Below are positions 794 to 35,972 of a DNA stretch of 64,000 nt, one piece after another. Numbering within the stretch: the first letter of the stretch is position 1; each line of letters begins with the position of its first letter. The stretch covers positions 480,001 through 544,000 of the forward strand of contig CAVPNI010000003.1 of assembly GCA_963706715.1 (NCBI GenBank), written 5' to 3'. The notes under the pieces were generated by a model, which was given only the letters and a program-made list of their open reading frames with translations, had not been told where the DNA came from and ran no database searches. Origin of the DNA: an uncultured Verrucomicrobiae bacterium. GTDB lineage: Bacteria; Verrucomicrobiota; Verrucomicrobiia; Chthoniobacterales; Xiphinematobacteraceae. A program made the position numbers and the translations under genes.

Positions 794-2241
794 AGTTTAC
801 TTCCGGCAGGTTTGTTGTCCTTGGGCTCCCGAATCACTAAAACTGACCAATTATTGTCTGGAGAGAGGTGATTACGTCCTCCGGAGCCATCTCCGGTAAT
901 AGCGAAGAATGCAGGGGTTATGGAGTTTGGCGGCATGGATCCGGAGGCATCGACGATGGATTGGGTGTAAATCCGCTCTCCTAGCTTTATGGCCAAGTCC
1001 TGAGGTCTGTAGCTTATTGTAGTCTTTGATTGGTTAATCAGCTCTAATCCAAATACGAGTGTGTCTTGAGGTTCAAAGCGCCAGACGTTTTTGATTTTTA
1101 CGGTAAAGTCTTGGTAGGGATTTTCGATGTTAGGAGAGACGTGTAATACTCCCTCAAGAGCATCCGAATGCTGCGCTTTAAAGAGGCTGTATGCTTTAGC
1201 TTTGTCTAATAAGGAAAGGAGTTGTGAAGGGTTAATAGTCCGTCCGGTGCGATTTTTATCGGGATTGAAGAGTGTGAGTGTTCTAAAAGGGGCATCGCTT
1301 GCAATCAGGTGGAAGATATAGGCTTTGCGGTTAAAGATAATGGTGAGGTAGTCTTCCGCTCCTTTTTCGAGCGCTCGGAGTGTCACGTAATAGTTTCCGG
1401 GTAGAAAGGAGATGAGGAAATTGGCGTTAGGCTGCTCTTGGGTGGCAATGGATTTTCCGTAAAGGGCGGAGATTTCAGAAGGAAATAGAATGGTCGTTGT
1501 TCCCGCTTCCCAAGCTATCGGGACTTCGTAAACGATGTGCTCGTCTAAGGGCTTCTGGATGATGGAGCTTGCTCTTAAAGGCTGGACAGAAATAAGAAAC
1601 GATAGGATAATTCCAACATGAAAGGCAGAGAGAGATTGCTTCGGGAGTTCCTTCAGGAATATCCTGATCTGGTCTACAGCGATCCCGAAACATGTGGTGG
1701 AAAAGTGATACTTAAAGGCACGCGCCTTCCACTGAACATTCTTTTTGAATGCTTTGAAAAAGGAACTTCTATTCGGGAAATCAGTAGCTGGTACGAAGCT
1801 CCAACTGTGACACCGGGCATTTTGAAAAGAATCAAAGCAATTTGGGATGCCAAGCGCTTGATTCCTCATCAGCACTGATGCGGATTTTACTTGATCACAA
1901 CGTACCTTTGCCGTTGCGGAGGTATCTTTCAAAGCACGAGGTAATAAGCGCCAGCTATTTAGGGTGGTACGATAAGAAAAACGGTGTGCTTCTAAAACTT
2001 GCCGAGGAAAACAAATTCGACTTGCTTGTAACTTGCGATACCAGCATGAGATACCAGCAACGCATGACCGGAAGAAAGATAGGGGTGCTTGCAATAACGC
2101 AAACGCACTGGACTTCAATAAGACAAGAAATTGAACAGCTCTGTTTGGCAGTTGATAAGATGATTCCGGGAAGTTACCAAGAATTCGTAATTTCCGCCGA
2201 TCGTTCAAAGAGGAGGAGTTCGGGCCTTTCGATGTGATCAT
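790..2241 (-). CDS. VirB9/TrbG-like T4SS protein; conserved part about 790-1620, N-terminal ~205 codons overlap an antisense TA pair
   Basis: Signal-like GIILSFLISVQPLRAS then VYEVPIAWEAGTTTILFPSEI; position between virB8-like and virB10-like genes; ATGA coupling at both ends. Confidence 0.6.
   Translation of the reverse strand: MITSKGPNSSSLNDRRKLRILGNFPESSYQLPNRAVQFLVLLKSSAFALLQAPLSFFRSCVAGISCWYRKLQASRICFPRQVLEAHRFSYRTTLNSWRLLPRALKDTSATAKVRCDQVKSASVLMRNQALGIPNCFDSFQNARCHSWSFVPATDFPNRSSFFKAFKKNVQWKARAFKYHFSTTCFGIAVDQIRIFLKELPKQSLSAFHVGIILSFLISVQPLRASSIIQKPLDEHIVYEVPIAWEAGTTTILFPSEISALYGKSIATQEQPNANFLISFLPGNYYVTLRALEKGAEDYLTIIFNRKAYIFHLIASDAPFRTLTLFNPDKNRTGRTINPSQLLSLLDKAKAYSLFKAQHSDALEGVLHVSPNIENPYQDFTVKIKNVWRFEPQDTLVFGLELINQSKTTISYRPQDLAIKLGERIYTQSIVDASGSMPPNSITPAFFAITGDGSGGRNHLSPDNNWSVLVIREPKDNKPAGSKL
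1618..1878 (+). CDS. DUF433 antitoxin
   Basis: DPETCGGKVILKGTRLP...GTSIREISSWY motif; TGATG coupling to the PIN gene. Confidence 0.85.
   Translation: MKGRERLLREFLQEYPDLVYSDPETCGGKVILKGTRLPLNILFECFEKGTSIREISSWYEAPTVTPGILKRIKAIWDAKRLIPHQH
1878..2237 (+). CDS. DUF5615/VapC45-like PIN toxin
   Basis: MRILLDHNVP...GWYDKKNGVLLKLAEENKFDLLVTCD; ATG at 1878 overlaps the DUF433 stop. Confidence 0.85.
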   Translation: MRILLDHNVPLPLRRYLSKHEVISASYLGWYDKKNGVLLKLAEENKFDLLVTCDTSMRYQQRMTGRKIGVLAITQTHWTSIRQEIEQLCLAVDKMIPGSYQEFVISADRSKRRSSGLSM

Positions 2242-2876
2242 AATGCCTTTTCCTCGTATGCAATGTTCCGAACAAGAAGTGGGAAGAGCCCGTTACCGAT
2301 AATGTCGGGGTTGCGGATAAACTCGATGTCGAGTGTAAATGTGTGTGGTTCTTCAATCGGCAAGCCTTCGAAGGTTCCAACACGAATGAGATGCCCGCGA
2401 GCACGGACGATCCATGAGTCATAGCTCTGCCCTCTCGACGCTTTTAATTTCCTGGTAGAAAGGACATCAATATTGCCTACTTCGACTTTTTGATGGATTT
2501 GTTTATCGGTGAAATATTGTGTCTGGGATTTTATGATTTGCTGTGCCTGCTCTCTCGCATTTTGCTCGTAGAGTTTTTGAAGGAGTTCGAGATTATCTGG
2601 GCCTTCCGGATTCCGTTGAAGCAGGGCTAAGCATGTTAGCTTAGTTTGATAAGCGTAAAGCTGACCCGCTTCGCTAAATGCAAGCGCCGGACTGTACAGA
2701 ATAGTTCCAGCAGGGTCGATGATAACGACTTTTTCCTGCTGTTTCAGAGCAGAAACGGCGAAATACGGAGCTGCTACAGCCGCTATAAGGCATATAGCTG
2801 CAACTATCATCCATATCCTTGCGGCAATGCGATTATTGGTGATGGCATCAACGGCGTTGAGAAGAAATTTATTCAT
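2238..2876 (-). CDS. VirB8/TrbF-like T4SS protein
   Basis: Single N-terminal TM, VVIIDPAG motif, operon position. Confidence 0.65.
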   Translation of the reverse strand: MNKFLLNAVDAITNNRIAARIWMIVAAICLIAAVAAPYFAVSALKQQEKVVIIDPAGTILYSPALAFSEAGQLYAYQTKLTCLALLQRNPEGPDNLELLQKLYEQNAREQAQQIIKSQTQYFTDKQIHQKVEVGNIDVLSTRKLKASRGQSYDSWIVRARGHLIRVGTFEGLPIEEPHTFTLDIEFIRNPDIIGNGLFPLLVRNIAYEEKAL

Positions 2877-3002
2877 GGTTGGGAGATTCTTAGGAAGGGT
2901 TAAAACAGTGCTGCTACAACCTGTTGCTTGGAGAAGTTTTCGATTATATCCTCATGACAAACAGCTTGTAATTGTACAGTCGTTGGTGGATGTTTATGTC
3001 GT

Positions 3003-3275
3003 ATGCGATATTCCATTCTCTTTCCTATTCTGGTTGCTGTTGTCTTAACTGGTGGTGCCACGTTTTTTATTACCAAGTCTGTGTGTTCAAATTCTAATTC
3101 TGAGTCTCAGGTCGTCGCTTATCTGAAAGAAAAAGAAGCGGAAAAGACAGCGTATGCTAAAAAGCAAATGGAAGCTGATAGAGAAGCTTCGAAACGAAGC
3201 GCTGAGGCAAGGCGCAACGCGTCTGAATCTCTGAGGAATCCGAATCGGAATCGGGACTCGCAAAAAGGCGAGTAA
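3003..3275 (+). CDS. Small membrane-anchored charged protein, antisense within the tra operon
   Basis: N-terminal hydrophobic helix plus charged helix; fills the gap between virB6-like and virB8-like genes. Confidence 0.55.
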   Translation: MRYSILFPILVAVVLTGGATFFITKSVCSNSNSESQVVAYLKEKEAEKTAYAKKQMEADREASKRSAEARRNASESLRNPNRNRDSQKGE

Positions 3276-34437: not shown

Positions 34438-34638
34438 ATGATTCATCGTCTTATGCAGCCATTAGATAAGAGTCTCAAAATTAGATTCTCGACTGAAATG
34501 ATGGAAATGTTAAAGAGGCGCGCTGCAGAGCGAGGGCCCGGCACACGGCTTGCCGATCTTGTTCGTGAAGCCGTGCATCATCACTATGCGGAAGATACGC
34601 CTCGCAAAAAAGTTGCGAAGAAAGACAAAAGTAAATGA
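34438..34638 (+). CDS. RHH regulator
   Basis: SLKIRFSTEM...LADLVREAV. Confidence 0.6.
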   Translation: MIHRLMQPLDKSLKIRFSTEMMEMLKRRAAERGPGTRLADLVREAVHHHYAEDTPRKKVAKKDKSK

Positions 34639-34786
34639 GCACTATCATCAAACAAATTTTCGACTATTTTGAGGGTCCTACAGAGAGAAGGGGGAGGCAT
34701 AGAGGCGCTCTCGATGGATTTCTATCAAATACTCGTCAAACAAAAAGTATTGGTTGCAGAGGGGGATTTGAGGCTATACTGAAACC

Positions 34787-35284
34787 ATGAAGCCGGATTC
34801 GTACATGGCATTTTCATCACCAGAAACTTATATTTCTGGTATGGCGGCGCTTTCCATTCCTGATGAAGGGCGAGCCGGTGGGGATTGGCACTTTGTGGCT
34901 ACATTCTGTCATGAAAGTGGCCCTATTCAGTCAGCAGGTCAAAAGGGCACTCTGATCAATACCAATCAATTCCTGGGCCAACGCATGGTAGTCGATAAGG
35001 CCGCCATTCTGCGCAAGCGAGGAATAGAAATACCGAACACACCGGTATTCTGTGCTCTCCATCCACGTGCAGTAGCCGATTTACTTTATCGTAGTTTGTC
35101 GAAAGATATTTTTCCTGCACATGTCATTTTGGAAGGCGGGATATTTGAGGAGGAAATCGAATTTTCTGAGTTGGACGCGCTTTTGAACCTAATCGCCCCA
35201 CAACTAAATGCTTTTCAAAACGAAAATCTTCGGCGCTGGAAAGCTCGACAGTTCTTTCCTGTGAAACATGCAATCGCAGCCTAA
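34787..35284 (+). CDS. Putative antitoxin partner of the AbiEii-like toxin
   Basis: YISGMAALSI...GDWH; overlaps the downstream nucleotidyltransferase. Confidence 0.6.
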   Translation: MKPDSYMAFSSPETYISGMAALSIPDEGRAGGDWHFVATFCHESGPIQSAGQKGTLINTNQFLGQRMVVDKAAILRKRGIEIPNTPVFCALHPRAVADLLYRSLSKDIFPAHVILEGGIFEEEIEFSELDALLNLIAPQLNAFQNENLRRWKARQFFPVKHAIAA

Positions 35285-35972
35285 TTCCCCTAACGCTATC
35301 CACACAGCTGTCATGCGGAAAATTTGCTTAAGTGTAGCAAATACTCCGATGGTTCTCAAAGGAGGTACGGCTCTTCTCCTCTGCTATGGACTAGATCGAC
35401 CTTCGGAAGATCTGGATTTTGATAGTTCAAAGAAGATGGGCCTAGAACGCCGGATTGAAGCTGCGCTAGGGCACGACTACCGTATCGATGCGATCAAAAC
35501 GTTGAAAAACACTGAAACCGTTCAGAGATTGCGCCTTAGCTATACCCATTTAGAAAGTGGAATTCAAAGAAGCCTAAAAATTGAAACATCTTTTCGTGTT
35601 GATCCAGCTGCTAACCAAATTAATGCCATCGCCGGCATCCGTGTTTACAAACTTGAGACTCTTTTCCGGCAGAAGGTACAAGCGCTCTTCCAACGCACAA
35701 CCGGACGAGATCTTTATGACGTAGCTTTCATCCTAGGAAAAAATGAGTTTAAGCCAGACCGGGATTTACTGACCCGCCTGCATCAAGATTTCAAAAATCC
35801 AACGCGATTTGGAGAAATTGAACAGCAGTTTCGCGAAGCATTTCAAACCGACCCACTCCTTTCCAGATACGATTTCGACAAGATACTTCTTCAGTTATCC
35901 GAGAGAGTTGAAGAAGCTTATAAAGAAGGCCTGAATATACAGCCATCGCAAAGCAGAGGGCTGAGTATGTAA
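35268..35972 (+). CDS. AbiEii/AbiGii-family nucleotidyltransferase toxin
   Basis: LKGGTAL, RPSEDLDF, K...R..GRDLYD. Confidence 0.9.
   Translation: MQSQPNSPNAIHTAVMRKICLSVANTPMVLKGGTALLLCYGLDRPSEDLDFDSSKKMGLERRIEAALGHDYRIDAIKTLKNTETVQRLRLSYTHLESGIQRSLKIETSFRVDPAANQINAIAGIRVYKLETLFRQKVQALFQRTTGRDLYDVAFILGKNEFKPDRDLLTRLHQDFKNPTRFGEIEQQFREAFQTDPLLSRYDFDKILLQLSERVEEAYKEGLNIQPSQSRGLSM

What the first reader, a model, noticed from the sequence alone, without database searches (positions are those of the whole stretch)
2190..35972. Two unrelated TA toxins end in the same tail (GLSM): candidate T4SS translocation signal
Seen: the PIN toxin ends DRSKRRSSGLSM* (2237) and the AbiEii toxin ends IQPSQSRGLSM* (35972), with different codons. 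Looser matches are MuF-C-like QRQSQGGIKLW* (51061) and Toprim QSQG...QNIPRMCL* (51612). The tails appear to lie beyond the catalytic domains. Known: VirD4-type coupling proteins recognise unstructured, often basic C-terminal signals, and a TA-derived toxin delivered by a conjugative T4SS is known (Bartonella VbhT). Inferred: this ICE tags TA toxins for delivery into recipients or competitors.
Basis: partly seen in the sequence, partly recalled or inferred. Interest (0 to 1): 0.85.

Follow-up and report, generated by a model that had tools for sequence, protein, structure and literature searches.

The report
Shared C-terminal tag on ICE toxins
Several unrelated toxins and relaxases carried by a conjugative element end in the same short glycine-plus-hydrophobic tail, which most likely marks them for export through the element's type IV secretion machine, although nobody has tested this.

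Summary
A PIN-like DUF5615 toxin (1878-2237 +) ends SSGLSM* and an AbiEii toxin (35268-35972 +) ends SRGLSM*, with different codons. A shared four-residue ending is not remarkable by itself: 0.033 such pairs are expected per 65 genes.

What gives it weight:
- Close homologs of both toxins keep the ending, while most of each family lacks it.
- The consensus [RQK]-G-[ILM]-x-[MLFI]-COOH recurs in this genome on a second, 25%-identical AbiEii, two TrwC relaxases, three beta-solenoid proteins next to the T4SS genes, and loosely on MuF_C. All are on conjugative-element DNA.
- A profile trained only on tails from other organisms ranks nine ICE proteins at the top of 3042 ORFs.
- A profile trained only on non-relaxase tails (AbiEii, Fic and nucleotidyltransferase toxins plus one ArdC) hits 5 of 29 foreign TrwC relaxase C-termini.
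- Related elements with the same MobP-like relaxase plus coupling protein carry Fic and DUF6036 toxins with the same kind of tail.

Against: 746 ORFs around TrwC-type relatives show no enrichment and ArdC homologs lack the tail. So does the window's own relaxase. The PIN tail scores only in the noise range, and the window's virB4-like gene is split.

Best reading (about 0.5): a short T4SS substrate tag, a compact analogue of the VbhT/BID case.

The parts
1618..1878 (+). DUF433 antitoxin-like partner of the PIN-like toxin. Its stop overlaps the toxin's ATG by one base. It has no tail motif (ends ...KRLIPHQH).
   Evidence: Pfam DUF433 E 1.5e-10; ORF list
1878..2237 (+). PIN-like DUF5615 toxin, 119 aa from ATG 1878 (the ORF is open from TTG 1842). 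The tail ADRSKRRSSGLSM is coded at 2196-2234 and the stop is at 2235-2237.
   Evidence: Pfam DUF5615 E 5e-4, below cut-off. 533 relatives at E<=1e-10. The only close homolog, P0001 (84% identity), ends ...RTKERDSGLSL. The family alignment ends at PGSYxEV. Motif score 7.2 bits, rank 13 of 3042.
1591..2237 (.). Cassette holding the DUF433/PIN pair. It lies between the virB9-like and virB8-position genes on the opposite strand. It replaces 413 nt of the otherwise 98-99% identical second ICE copy (C3:140599-141011).
   Evidence: blastn of the window against its own genome
34787..35284 (+). 165-aa conserved upstream partner of the AbiEii toxin, a putative antitoxin with no family hit. It has no tail motif (ends ...PVKHAIAA).
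   Evidence: No Pfam or NCBIfam hit. The same partner stands upstream of AbiEii in L057-L063.
35268..35972 (+). AbiEii nucleotidyltransferase toxin. The tail NIQPSQSRGLSM is coded at 35934-35969 and the stop is at 35970-35972.
   Evidence: Pfam AbiEii E 3e-27, domain residues 19-198. Homologs at 59-72% identity end RGLRM, RGLKM, QGMGL or QGMSF. G231 is invariant while no linker residue between 218 and 230 is invariant. Residues 225-234 have pLDDT under 50.
51061..51621 (-). MuF_C-domain protein ending ...QRQSQGGIKLW. The tail is coded at 51064-51090. It is a loose member of the tail set.
   Evidence: Pfam MuF_C E 7.9e-14. It matches the strict pattern but is not in the top 30 by profile. No homolog of similar length was found.
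46533..48182 (-). Type IV coupling protein (T4CP). It is the only one found in the genome and the candidate receptor of the tails.
   Evidence: Pfam TrwB_AAD_bind 1.4e-7, T4SS-DNA_transf 3.4e-5. NCBIfam TraD/VirD4-like weak hits. Single hit in the own genome.
48314..49465 (-). MobP-like relaxase directly upstream of the T4CP. It lacks the tail (ends ...QRQTKLAAQ).
   Evidence: Pfam Relaxase 3.3e-4. NCBIfam MobP2 2e-5. 30-37% identical to the relaxases next to the T4CP in G301.
2..793 (-). TrbI/VirB10-like gene, C-terminal part. The whole gene has 351 aa and runs off the left end of the window.
   Evidence: Pfam TrbI 7.9e-5; NCBIfam VirB10 0.0085
790..1590 (-). VirB9-position gene, named from its place in the operon only. 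The ORF is open up to 2241, but its first part is antisense to the TA pair and is absent from ICE copy 2.
   Evidence: No family hit.
2238..5010 (-). VirB8-position (2238-2876), VirB6-like (3287-4195) and VirB5-like (4198-5010) genes
   Evidence: Pfam T4SS PF07996 3.5e-4 for 4198-5010. The others are named by position and by their paralogs in two other clusters.
5285..6853 (-). C-terminal fragment of the split VirB4-like ATPase
   Evidence: Residues 6-484 are 95.6% identical to 381-862 of the intact 866-aa copy. That copy hits TraC/VirB4 NCBIfam models at 2.7e-10 and 1.7e-8.
6840..27526 (.). 20.7-kb island inserted in the virB4-like gene, bounded by the 13-bp direct repeat ATAGTTCCCCCAG. It carries an integrase, a primase-helicase, Rhs proteins, IS630 and an ABC ATPase.
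27500..28678 (-). N-terminal fragment of the split VirB4-like ATPase
   Evidence: 99.7% identical to residues 1-385 of the intact copy
36035..38064 (-). Group II intron with reverse transcriptase (36205-37884). Its 3' end lies about 60 nt beyond the AbiEii stop, so it does not code the tail.
   Evidence: Rfam RF00029 36037-36190 and RF02003 37885-38030. Pfam RVT_1 and GIIM. A 99.95% identical copy stands on C4.

Best explanation
The two GLSM endings are members of a short C-terminal tag. It is an unstructured, usually basic or Q/P/S-rich linker that ends in [RQK]-G-[ILM]-x-[MLFI], with 0-3 residues after it. The tag has been added to unrelated proteins of a family of conjugative elements. I infer that the element's type IV coupling protein, or an adaptor of it, reads the tag. 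Tagged proteins would then be passed through the T4SS together with or alongside the DNA. In this genome the tagged proteins are the TA toxins PIN-like and AbiEii, relaxases of TrwC type, beta-solenoid proteins encoded next to the T4SS genes, and perhaps MuF_C. Related elements carry tagged Fic and DUF6036 toxins. The untagged antitoxins would stay behind. A recipient would then receive toxin before it can make antitoxin, which gives addiction on entry, a transient shut-down of recipient defences, or killing of non-kin. Shown here: the motif, its placement beyond the folds, its conservation in close homologs, its restriction to ICE-borne proteins in this genome, and its recurrence on relaxases and on toxins of related elements. 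Inferred: that it is a secretion signal, which protein reads it, and what the delivered toxins do.
For: (1) The tail is conserved where the linker is not. Eight AbiEii homologs of 59-70% identity, aligned with the window's protein (9 rows), keep G231 invariant, while no linker residue between 218 and 230 is invariant. The PIN homolog P0001 keeps SGLS[ML].
(2) The tail is an add-on. It is found on 1 of 150 DUF5615 representatives, 3 of 74 metagenomic AbiEii homologs and 17 of 129 listed AbiEii proteins. In the AbiEii model it follows the last helix and has pLDDT under 50.
(3) Within the genome, the pattern G[ILM][SKRG][LMFW].{0,2}$ is on 18 of 3041 ORFs, against 3-5 at eight internal offsets. 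Thirteen of the 18 lie in ICE DNA.
(4) A profile built only from tails of other organisms puts ICE proteins at ranks 1-9 of 3042. Ten ORFs reach 10 bits or more, against 0-2 at internal shifts.
(5) Codons differ between all tails in this genome, so the constraint acts on the protein.
(6) A profile built from 11 non-relaxase tails scores 5 of 29 foreign TrwC relaxase C-termini at 6 bits or more. Only 2 hits occur in 20 internal shifts of the same 29 proteins.
(7) Among the T4CP loci sampled in the phylum, only those of G301 share the window's MobP-like relaxase. These loci carry two Fic toxins and one DUF6036 toxin with the tail.
(8) In new loci of that type, 2 of 165 ORFs reach 10 bits against 0 at eight shifts. 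They are again a Fic and a DUF6036.
(9) The three antitoxins lack the tail.
(10) Tails are basic on average: net charge +2.7 over the last 15 residues, against a genome mean of +0.77.
(11) Precedent: VbhT and a PezT toxin carry relaxase-derived signals. The authors expected more TA toxins with short basic C-terminal signals (PMC5675462, passages read).
Against: There is no experiment behind this. Around 20 further homologous T4CPs, whose fetched stretches mostly hold a TrwC relaxase, the motif is not enriched. In those 746 ORFs the strict pattern gives 2 against 1-2, R2 gives 1 against 0-2, and M3 gives 1 against 0-6. The strict pattern found 0 of 380 in the first set. No ORF listed from the 30 ArdC loci of the phylum shows the tail. 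The window's own relaxase and those of G301 lack it. The PIN tail scores 7.2 bits, where internal shifts give 0-4 hits at 8 bits and 7-18 at 6 bits. Without its context and its homolog, the PIN tail could be chance. The AbiEii-1 tail has net charge 0. A second AbiEii clade with ...KKRDG[ML]GF includes a protein that its source names as from Leptospirillum ferriphilum, and its link to an ICE was not examined. In the G301/G413 lineage the shared SKGMKITPY ending comes with at least 35 nt of shared downstream DNA, so it spread as a 3' DNA module. In this genome's TrwC genes the tail codons double as the translation start region of the next gene. The patterns were refined after seeing examples. 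The window's T4SS has a split virB4-like gene, and copy 2 has a virB6-like gene broken by IS elements.
Confidence: 0.5

Rival explanations
1. The tail is a real protein-level motif, but something other than the T4SS reads it. It could be a degron for a cytoplasmic protease or unfoldase. ClpX 'C-motif 2' tails such as that of MuA are basic followed by hydrophobic residues (recalled, not from a call). It could also be a docking peptide for a shared partner that keeps mobile-element toxins and relaxases in check.
For: The endings are basic plus hydrophobic with a free carboxylate. The tail occurs on an AbiEii clade outside this phylum whose ICE link is unknown. There is no enrichment around most T4CP homologs. 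The cognate MobP-like relaxase lacks it.
Against: In this genome the nine best-scoring C-termini are all on ICE proteins and none is on a housekeeping protein. A general degron should also mark chromosomal proteins. In TA systems the antitoxin is usually the labile partner, and here the antitoxins lack the tail.
Confidence: 0.2
2. The PIN/AbiEii match is coincidence plus ascertainment. The AbiEii tail is simply an inherited feature of one subfamily. The other 'members' were gathered by patterns tuned after the fact.
For: A four-residue match is expected at 0.033 pairs per window, and 11 such non-paralogous pairs exist within 64 kb in this genome. The PIN tail scores 7.2 bits, within the noise. 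DUF5615 proteins often have short basic tails anyway. Patterns changed. Pooled tests around T4CPs are not significant.
Against: The profiles were trained on sequences other than those scored and still single out ICE proteins and relaxase termini. A second AbiEii of 25% identity has the ending after a C-terminal extension of different length. Fic and DUF6036 toxins of related elements were found by a pattern fixed beforehand.
Confidence: 0.15
3. The similarity reflects DNA-level signals or cassette junctions rather than protein function. Toxin genes would be swapped upstream of a conserved 3' segment. Alternatively, the last codons would be shaped by the ribosome-binding site and start codon of a downstream gene.
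For: In G301 and G413 the SKGMKITPY codons and at least 35 nt downstream are shared between Fic and DUF6036 genes. The TrwC948 tail codons are repeated as the start region of the next gene, and the TrwC842 stop overlaps the next ATG. The ArdC tail in L062 ends CTA TGA, with an ATGA overlap.
Against: The window's two tails and the other tails of this genome share no DNA. Their glycine codons vary (GGC, GGG, GGA, GGT), and the base before them varies too. The -3 residue is always L, I or M through many codons, and the last residue varies among M, L, F and I. Neither the PIN nor the AbiEii gene has a same-strand gene just downstream.
Confidence: 0.1
4. The tail is a beta-clamp-binding peptide (QL[SD]LF or QLxLxL type) that brings mobile-element proteins to replication forks.
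For: Several endings read Q-G-hydrophobic-x-hydrophobic, and some carriers act on DNA (TrwC, ArdC, MuF_C).
Against: The organism's DinB ends ...HHQPELFQ, the classical Q-x-x-L-F spacing, which differs from [RQK]-G-[ILM]-x-[MLFI]. Most tails have R, K or S in place of Q. Fic, PIN and nucleotidyltransferase toxins and beta-solenoid proteins have no known link to the clamp.
Confidence: 0.03

Closest known systems
VbhT of Bartonella schoenbuchensis, with the PezT-BID toxin of Chelativorans plasmid 1: TA toxins recruited as substrates of conjugative T4SSs (PMC5675462; passages read)
   Same: A TA toxin encoded between or beside T4SS and DNA-transfer genes carries a C-terminal addition shared with relaxases. 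The antitoxin has no such addition. The proposed roles are also shared: addiction on entry or help for the incoming DNA.
   Different: The known signal is a folded BID domain plus a basic tail, derived from the element's own relaxase. Here the addition is only about 6-20 unstructured residues with a crisp ending. It sits on four toxin families (PIN-like, AbiEii, Fic, DUF6036). It is absent from the element's own MobP-like relaxase. Transfer is untested.
C-terminal Arg-rich transport signal of Agrobacterium VirB/D4 substrates (VirF, VirE2, VirE3). A review passage states a consensus Arg motif (PMC10025392). The primary paper PMC545537 is not held. That VirF ends in ...RGL is recalled only.
   Same: It is short, unstructured, C-terminal and positively charged, and the coupling protein is thought to read it.
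   Different: The tails here have an invariant glycine followed by hydrophobic-x-hydrophobic at the very end. One of them has no net charge (AbiEii-1).
Dot/Icm C-terminal signals of Legionella (hydrophobic residue near the end, E-block) and the XVIPCD domain of Xanthomonas T4SS toxins (review passages)
   Same: These are C-terminal recognition elements on toxins or effectors delivered by T4SSs, including toxins that kill bacteria.
   Different: XVIPCD has about 120 residues. Dot/Icm signals are acidic or hydrophobic and are read by the DotL-DotM-IcmSW complex. None of these parts was seen here.
Proteins co-transferred by conjugation systems (F plasmid 'conjutome', ParA, SSB, PsiB, antitoxins; PMC11288057 passages read; PMC8406263 search listing and start of abstract only) and polyvalent-protein modules MuF_C, ArdC and Toprim (PMC5512222, search listing only)
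   Same: They are mobile-element proteins sent to the recipient, and some use C-terminal signals. MuF_C, Toprim/DUF3991 and one ArdC occur in this element family.
   Different: No common sequence motif is described for those substrates in the passages read. Here there is one.

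Membership tests
AbiEii toxin (PF08843, type IV TA) | Nucleotidyltransferase domain matched by the family profile above its cut-off | tested here: met
   E 3e-27, 96.5 bits against a cut-off of 22.5. 400 relatives at E<=1e-3.
AbiEii toxin (PF08843, type IV TA) | Adjacent AbiEi-type antitoxin | tested here: not met
   The upstream 165-aa partner has no AbiEi or other family hit, though it is conserved upstream of the close homologs. The second AbiEii at C3:131891-132763 does have an AbiEi_4 neighbour.
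PIN-like DUF5615 with DUF433 pair | Profile match of the toxin and a DUF433 partner directly upstream | tested here: inconclusive
   DUF5615 scores 20.3 bits, below the cut-off of 23.8. DUF433 is met at 41.2 bits. phmmer gives 533 relatives at E<=1e-10, aligned over residues 1 to about 105. Toxicity and nuclease activity were not tested.
Short basic C-terminal T4SS signal (VirB/D4 type) | Lies in the last 20-50 residues, outside the folded domain, and is unstructured | tested here: met
Short basic C-terminal T4SS signal (VirB/D4 type) | Net positive charge | tested here: inconclusive
   Mean net charge is +2.7 over ten tails, against a genome mean of +0.77. AbiEii-1 is 0.
Short basic C-terminal T4SS signal (VirB/D4 type) | Shared with known substrates of the same machine (relaxase) | tested here: inconclusive
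   The tail is present on TrwC relaxases of this genome and on 5 of 29 foreign ones. It is absent from the MobP-like relaxase that stands beside the T4CP.
Short basic C-terminal T4SS signal (VirB/D4 type) | Necessary and sufficient for T4CP-dependent transfer of a reporter | not testable with these tools
   Needs a Cre or TEM-1 translocation assay
BID-domain bipartite signal (Bartonella) | A folded BID domain of about 100 or more residues before the basic tail | tested here: not met
   Only 11-13 residues follow the toxin folds. Pfam finds no domain other than the toxin domain.
Beta-clamp-binding motif | QL[SD]LF or QLxLxL spacing | tested here: not met
   The tails read [RQK]-G-[ILM]-x-[MLFI]. 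The organism's DinB has QPELF.
MPF-T type conjugative T4SS | VirB4 ATPase, VirB6, VirB8, VirB9 and VirB10 core, coupling protein, relaxase | tested here: inconclusive
   The hits are weak but mutually consistent: TrbI 7.9e-5, PF07996 3.5e-4, TrwB_AAD_bind 1.4e-7, and TraC/VirB4 2.7e-10 and 1.7e-8. The VirB6, VirB8 and VirB9 names rest on position only. The virB4-like gene of the window is split.

The most novel reading that the evidence does not exclude
A family of conjugative elements in Verrucomicrobiota-like bacteria uses a crisp tag of 5-6 residues with a free carboxyl end, [RQK]-G-[ILM]-x-[MLFI], as a portable T4SS address label. Moved by 3'-end reassortment, it has turned at least four unrelated TA toxin families (PIN-like, AbiEii, Fic, DUF6036), relaxases and beta-solenoid proteins into injected cargo. 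Conjugation there would deliver a first wave of toxins without their antitoxins. This would be the first T4SS signal simple enough to predict substrates from sequence alone.
Probability: 0.3. Interest if true: 0.8.

Novelty: new variant of a known kind. Interest (0 to 1): 0.6.

Why it matters
T4SS substrate signals are described as short, basic and hard to predict (PMC5675462, passage read). Only a few TA toxins, all with the large BID domain, have been tied to conjugative transfer. A defined linear motif shared by relaxases and several toxin families would give a direct, testable handle on two questions. The first is how coupling proteins choose protein cargo. The second is why conjugative elements send toxins ahead of their genes: addiction on entry, suppression of recipient defences, or competition. 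It would also allow cargo to be read from genome sequence in a poorly studied phylum. If the tail turns out to be a degron or a partner-binding peptide, it would still be a shared control element of mobile-element toxins.

Tried and rejected
1. Intron origin of the AbiEii tail: rejected. The intron's 3' end (Rfam 36037-36190) lies about 60 nt past the stop.
2. DNA repeat as the cause: rejected for the window, because the codons and flanks differ.
3. Backbone read-through as the origin of the PIN tail: rejected. The cassette-specific segment runs to 2237, exactly up to the virB8-position stop.
4. Complex prediction of the T4CP (residues 60-549, 18-row alignment) with the last 50 residues of AbiEii (alignment A4 of 9 rows; the job reports 8 rows): 'no answer', score 0.00 in two runs, controls not run. 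This counts neither for nor against binding.
5. ArdC as an independent family test: no tail on any ORF listed from 30 loci.
6. Strict-pattern test around T4CP homologs: 0 of 380 and 2 of 746 ORFs, no enrichment.
7. Homologs of MuF_C: only the window's own protein was returned.
8. Homologs of the beta-solenoid proteins in 401 genomes of the phylum: only weak repeat-level matches, nothing informative about tails.
9. Earlier notes of this scan on the genome: none exist.
10. Vergunst 2005 (PMC545537): not held, so the comparison with Agrobacterium tails rests on a review passage and on recall.
11. A second recurrent ending, 'VLP' within the last 12 residues, on 27 of 3041 ORFs against 4-14 at offsets. 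This is mostly one multi-copy paralog family, not an independent signal.
12. Literature searches found no description of this motif. The searches were (type IV secretion, C-terminal, translocation signal, relaxase, toxin-antitoxin). Supplements were not read.

Full report
**What is there**

The window is G000:C3:480001-544000 of a 3.04-Mb, 47% G+C genome in four contigs. ORF 1842-2237 (+) ends ...ADRSKRRSSGLSM*. ORF 35268-35972 (+) ends ...NIQPSQSRGLSM*. The last five codons are GGC CTT TCG ATG TGA and GGG CTG AGT ATG TAA, and the flanks are unrelated.

The first ORF is a PIN-like DUF5615 protein. Pfam scores it at E 5e-4, below the cut-off, but phmmer finds 533 relatives at E<=1e-10. Its likely start is ATG 1878, one base into the stop of a DUF433 partner (E 1.5e-10). 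The second ORF is an AbiEii nucleotidyltransferase toxin (E 3e-27). A conserved 165-aa upstream partner belongs to no known family.

**Context**

The window holds a divergent conjugative element. Its genes are:
- TrbI/VirB10-like
- VirB9-, VirB8- and VirB6-position genes
- VirB5-like
- a VirB4-like ATPase
- a VirB2-like pilin (weak hit)
- ParA/VirC1
- topoisomerase III
- a coupling protein (46533-48182)
- a MobP-like relaxase (48314-49465)
- Toprim/DUF3991
- MuF_C

The coupling protein is the only one found in the genome. There are three T4SS gene clusters: the window, C3:131-154 kb, and C2:473-483 kb. The DUF433/PIN cassette (1591-2237) lies inside the T4SS operon on the other strand. It replaces 413 nt of the otherwise 98-99% identical second copy.

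**Is the coincidence more than chance?**

On its own, no. Two proteins share their last four residues with probability 1.6e-5. That gives 0.033 expected pairs among 65 genes, and this genome has 11 non-paralogous pairs of that kind within 64 kb. The case rests on what follows.

**The tail is an add-on that close relatives keep**
- The only close PIN homolog (P0001, 84% identity) ends ...RTKERDSGLSL.
- Of 150 DUF5615 representatives, one has a like ending (P0261 ...RSGIKMP).
- The DUF5615 alignment ends at PGSYxEV, followed by variable, often basic tails of 0-15 residues.
- AbiEii homologs of 59-72% identity end SRGLRM, KRGLRM, KRGLKM, RQGMGL or RQGMSF. P0004 ends KQSLGM. P0007, P0010 and P0122 lack the ending.
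- In the nine-row alignment of tailed AbiEii proteins, G231 is invariant while no residue from 218 to 230 is.
- Of 129 listed AbiEii proteins, 17 match G[ILM].[MLFIW].{0,3}$. These include a separate clade of roughly 40-45% identity ending KKRDG[ML][GE]F.
- Of 74 metagenomic AbiEii homologs with complete ORFs, 3 match.
- The AlphaFold model is of modest quality (mean pLDDT 68). It places the last helix at 203-223 and leaves 225-234 as coil with pLDDT under 50.

**More carriers in the same genome**

The pattern G[ILM][SKRG][LMFW].{0,2}$ is found on 18 of 3041 greedily chosen ORFs. Eight internal offsets give 3-5. Thirteen of the 18 are on conjugative-element DNA (Pfam):
- Two TrwC relaxases: C1:2998-5844, ending ...RYRQGLSL, and C4:231684-234212, ending ...RQRLGLSLSL.
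- A 154-aa protein beside TrwC, ending ...KKRSGISLGM, with an internal KGMGLKISM.
- A second AbiEii of 25% identity with an AbiEi_4 neighbour (C3:131891-132763, ...NIRRGISM).
- Three beta-solenoid proteins immediately past virB10. They lie just left of the window at C3:474606-478236 and end ...QKLGMKMLM, ...HKQGIKMSM and ...TQKFGMKMG. Copies stand in ICE copy 2.
- MuF_C, present twice.

The five remaining hits match the background. The PIN ORF was not in the greedy set.

Two of the beta-solenoid proteins are paralogs with homologous tails. The independent carriers are therefore about seven families.

All these tails use different codons. The three antitoxins have no such ending.

**Tests with training and scoring kept apart**

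A six-column profile was built from 17 tails of other organisms and scored on all 3042 ORFs.
- Ranks 1-9 are the beta-solenoid proteins, AbiEii-2, AbiEii-1 and TrwC.
- Ten ORFs reach 10 bits, against 0-2 at eight internal shifts.
- The PIN toxin is rank 13 at 7.2 bits, which is inside the noise.

A second profile was built from 11 tails of AbiEii, ArdC, Fic and DUF6036 proteins only.
- It scores 5 of 29 TrwC relaxases of other genomes at 6 bits or more at the C-terminus.
- Only 2 hits occur across 20 internal shifts of the same 29 proteins.
- At 8 bits the counts are 3 against 1.

These genomes are kin, so the counts overstate independence.

**Related elements**

The coupling protein has relatives in 27 of 401 sampled genomes of the phylum, G000 included.
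- In 380 ORFs around the best ones, the strict pattern finds none.
- A looser pattern, fixed before the look, finds 4 against 0-1 at offsets.
- Those hits are a TrwC, two Fic proteins and a DUF6036 nucleotidyltransferase.
- The three toxins are all in G301. Its two loci are the only ones that share the window's MobP-like relaxase next to the coupling protein (30-37% identity).
- In 746 further ORFs around 20 more T4CP homologs, most with a TrwC match in the fetched stretches, there is no enrichment.
- New MobP-type loci from G301's genus give 2 of 165 ORFs at 10 bits against 0 at eight shifts. They are a Fic (271 aa) and a DUF6036 (192 aa), and both end SKGMKITPY.

Here two unrelated toxins again share a tail. 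In this lineage, however, the tail codons and at least 35 nt downstream are the same DNA. The tag travels there as a 3' module.

One ArdC in a metagenomic contig beside a tail-less AbiEii ends ...PHKQGMRL. No ORF listed from 30 ArdC loci of the phylum has such an ending.

**Rivals**
- A DNA-level cause fails for the window, where the codons differ, the -3 position is always L, I or M through many codons, and the last residue is M, L, F or I. It does apply to the G301/G413 module. It also applies to this genome's TrwC genes, whose tail codons double as the start region of the next gene.
- A clamp-binding peptide is unlikely. DinB of this organism ends ...QPELFQ, which is the classical spacing.
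- A degron or another partner-binding role cannot be excluded. It would have to explain why only ICE proteins top the genome ranking.
- Chance remains a fair reading for the PIN tail alone.

**What is known**

Harms et al. [quoted passage not shown] They found a PezT-BID toxin in the same gene arrangement. They also wrote that most T4SSs use very short, positively charged C-terminal signals, so more such toxins should exist.

The present case fits that forecast with a much smaller and sharper signal and with more toxin families. No paper describing this motif was found in the searches.

**State of the machine**

The window's virB4-like gene is split at a 13-bp direct repeat by a 20.7-kb island. 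Copy 2 has IS elements in its virB6-like gene. The C2 cluster has uninterrupted ORFs but no coupling protein beside it. The tails may therefore serve a system that is decaying in this genome, or one that works through the C2 cluster together with the single coupling protein.

**Verdict**

I put about 0.5 on a T4SS tag, 0.2 on another protein-level role, 0.15 on chance and ascertainment, 0.1 on DNA-level causes and 0.03 on clamp binding.

Noticed in passing
window 5285-6853, 6840-27526, 27500-28678: The VirB4-like ATPase gene is split by a 20.7-kb island bounded by the 13-bp direct repeat ATAGTTCCCCCAG. The island carries a tyrosine integrase (26285-27436), a D5/primase-helicase (22753-25383), two Rhs proteins, IS630 and an ABC ATPase. 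Parts of it recur elsewhere in the genome at 88-97% identity.
   Followed up: partly
window 790-2241 (-): A 483-aa ORF is open across the whole antisense strand of the DUF433/PIN pair. Its start overlaps the stop of the virB8-position gene, as the 405-aa ORF of ICE copy 2 does. Only the part coded in 790-1590 is shared with copy 2, so the first part looks non-coding. An overlapping gene was not excluded.
   Followed up: partly
G000:C1:2998-3020 and the next gene's start (locus L001 about 2960-3010): The last codons of the TrwC relaxase (CAAGGTCTCTCTTTATGA) are repeated 5 nt further on as the region just before and including the ATG of the next gene. This is a tandem duplication of about 22 nt. 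In the C4 paralog the stop and the next ATG overlap (ATGA).
   Followed up: partly
loci L138-L196 (relatives' TrwC and ArdC genes); window 34787-35284 and 48314-49465: Many ICE proteins of relatives end in ...AA. TrwC examples are ...PAIAA, ...RLAAA, ...KSLAA and ...NVLAA. ArdC and its neighbours give ...QEKAA, ...PKAA and ...LFAA. The window's putative antitoxin ends ...HAIAA and its relaxase ends ...KLAAQ. This could be a second kind of ending, or only high alanine content. It was not tested.
   Followed up: no
proteins P0068, P0085, P0101, P0108, P0120: A separate AbiEii clade of roughly 40-45% identity ends ...NQSKKRDG[ML][GE]F. One member is named by its source as from Leptospirillum ferriphilum. 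A like tail therefore exists outside this phylum. Its gene neighbourhood was not examined.
   Followed up: no
L260:15305-17251 (+); L200:15399-17501 (-): An ankyrin-repeat protein of 648 aa, 5 kb from an AbiEii homolog in a proteobacterial MAG, ends ...SPKRGLEF (11.3 bits). A large serine recombinase in a TrwC-type ICE ends ...MKRGFKMGIG (10.0 bits).
   Followed up: partly
window 36035-38064 (-): A group II intron with an intact reverse transcriptase/maturase ORF lies 60 nt past the AbiEii stop. A 99.95% identical copy is on C4:279717-281746, and fragments occur elsewhere.
   Followed up: partly
window 8093-8476, 8482-8853, 31697-32071, 38149-38808, 46133-46633: Five proteins have 'VLP' within their last 12 residues (for example ...HLTEVVLPHISPIF and ...HEPVLPRYPL). 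Genome-wide the count is 27 of 3041 against 4-14 at offsets. Most belong to one multi-copy small-protein family, one member of which is RadC-like.
   Followed up: partly
window 55560-55740 and many places in the genome: A repeat of about 165 nt is present in dozens of copies in both orientations at 74-100% identity, so it is MITE-like. There are also many IS copies, including IS630 at 9413-10440 in at least 14 copies. The genome is unusually rich in mobile DNA, and its genus also holds genomes of 0.9 Mb.
   Followed up: no
window 58347-63896 (+): A UvrA-like protein of 1849 aa has duplicated ABC and UvrA domains, about twice the usual length.
   Followed up: no
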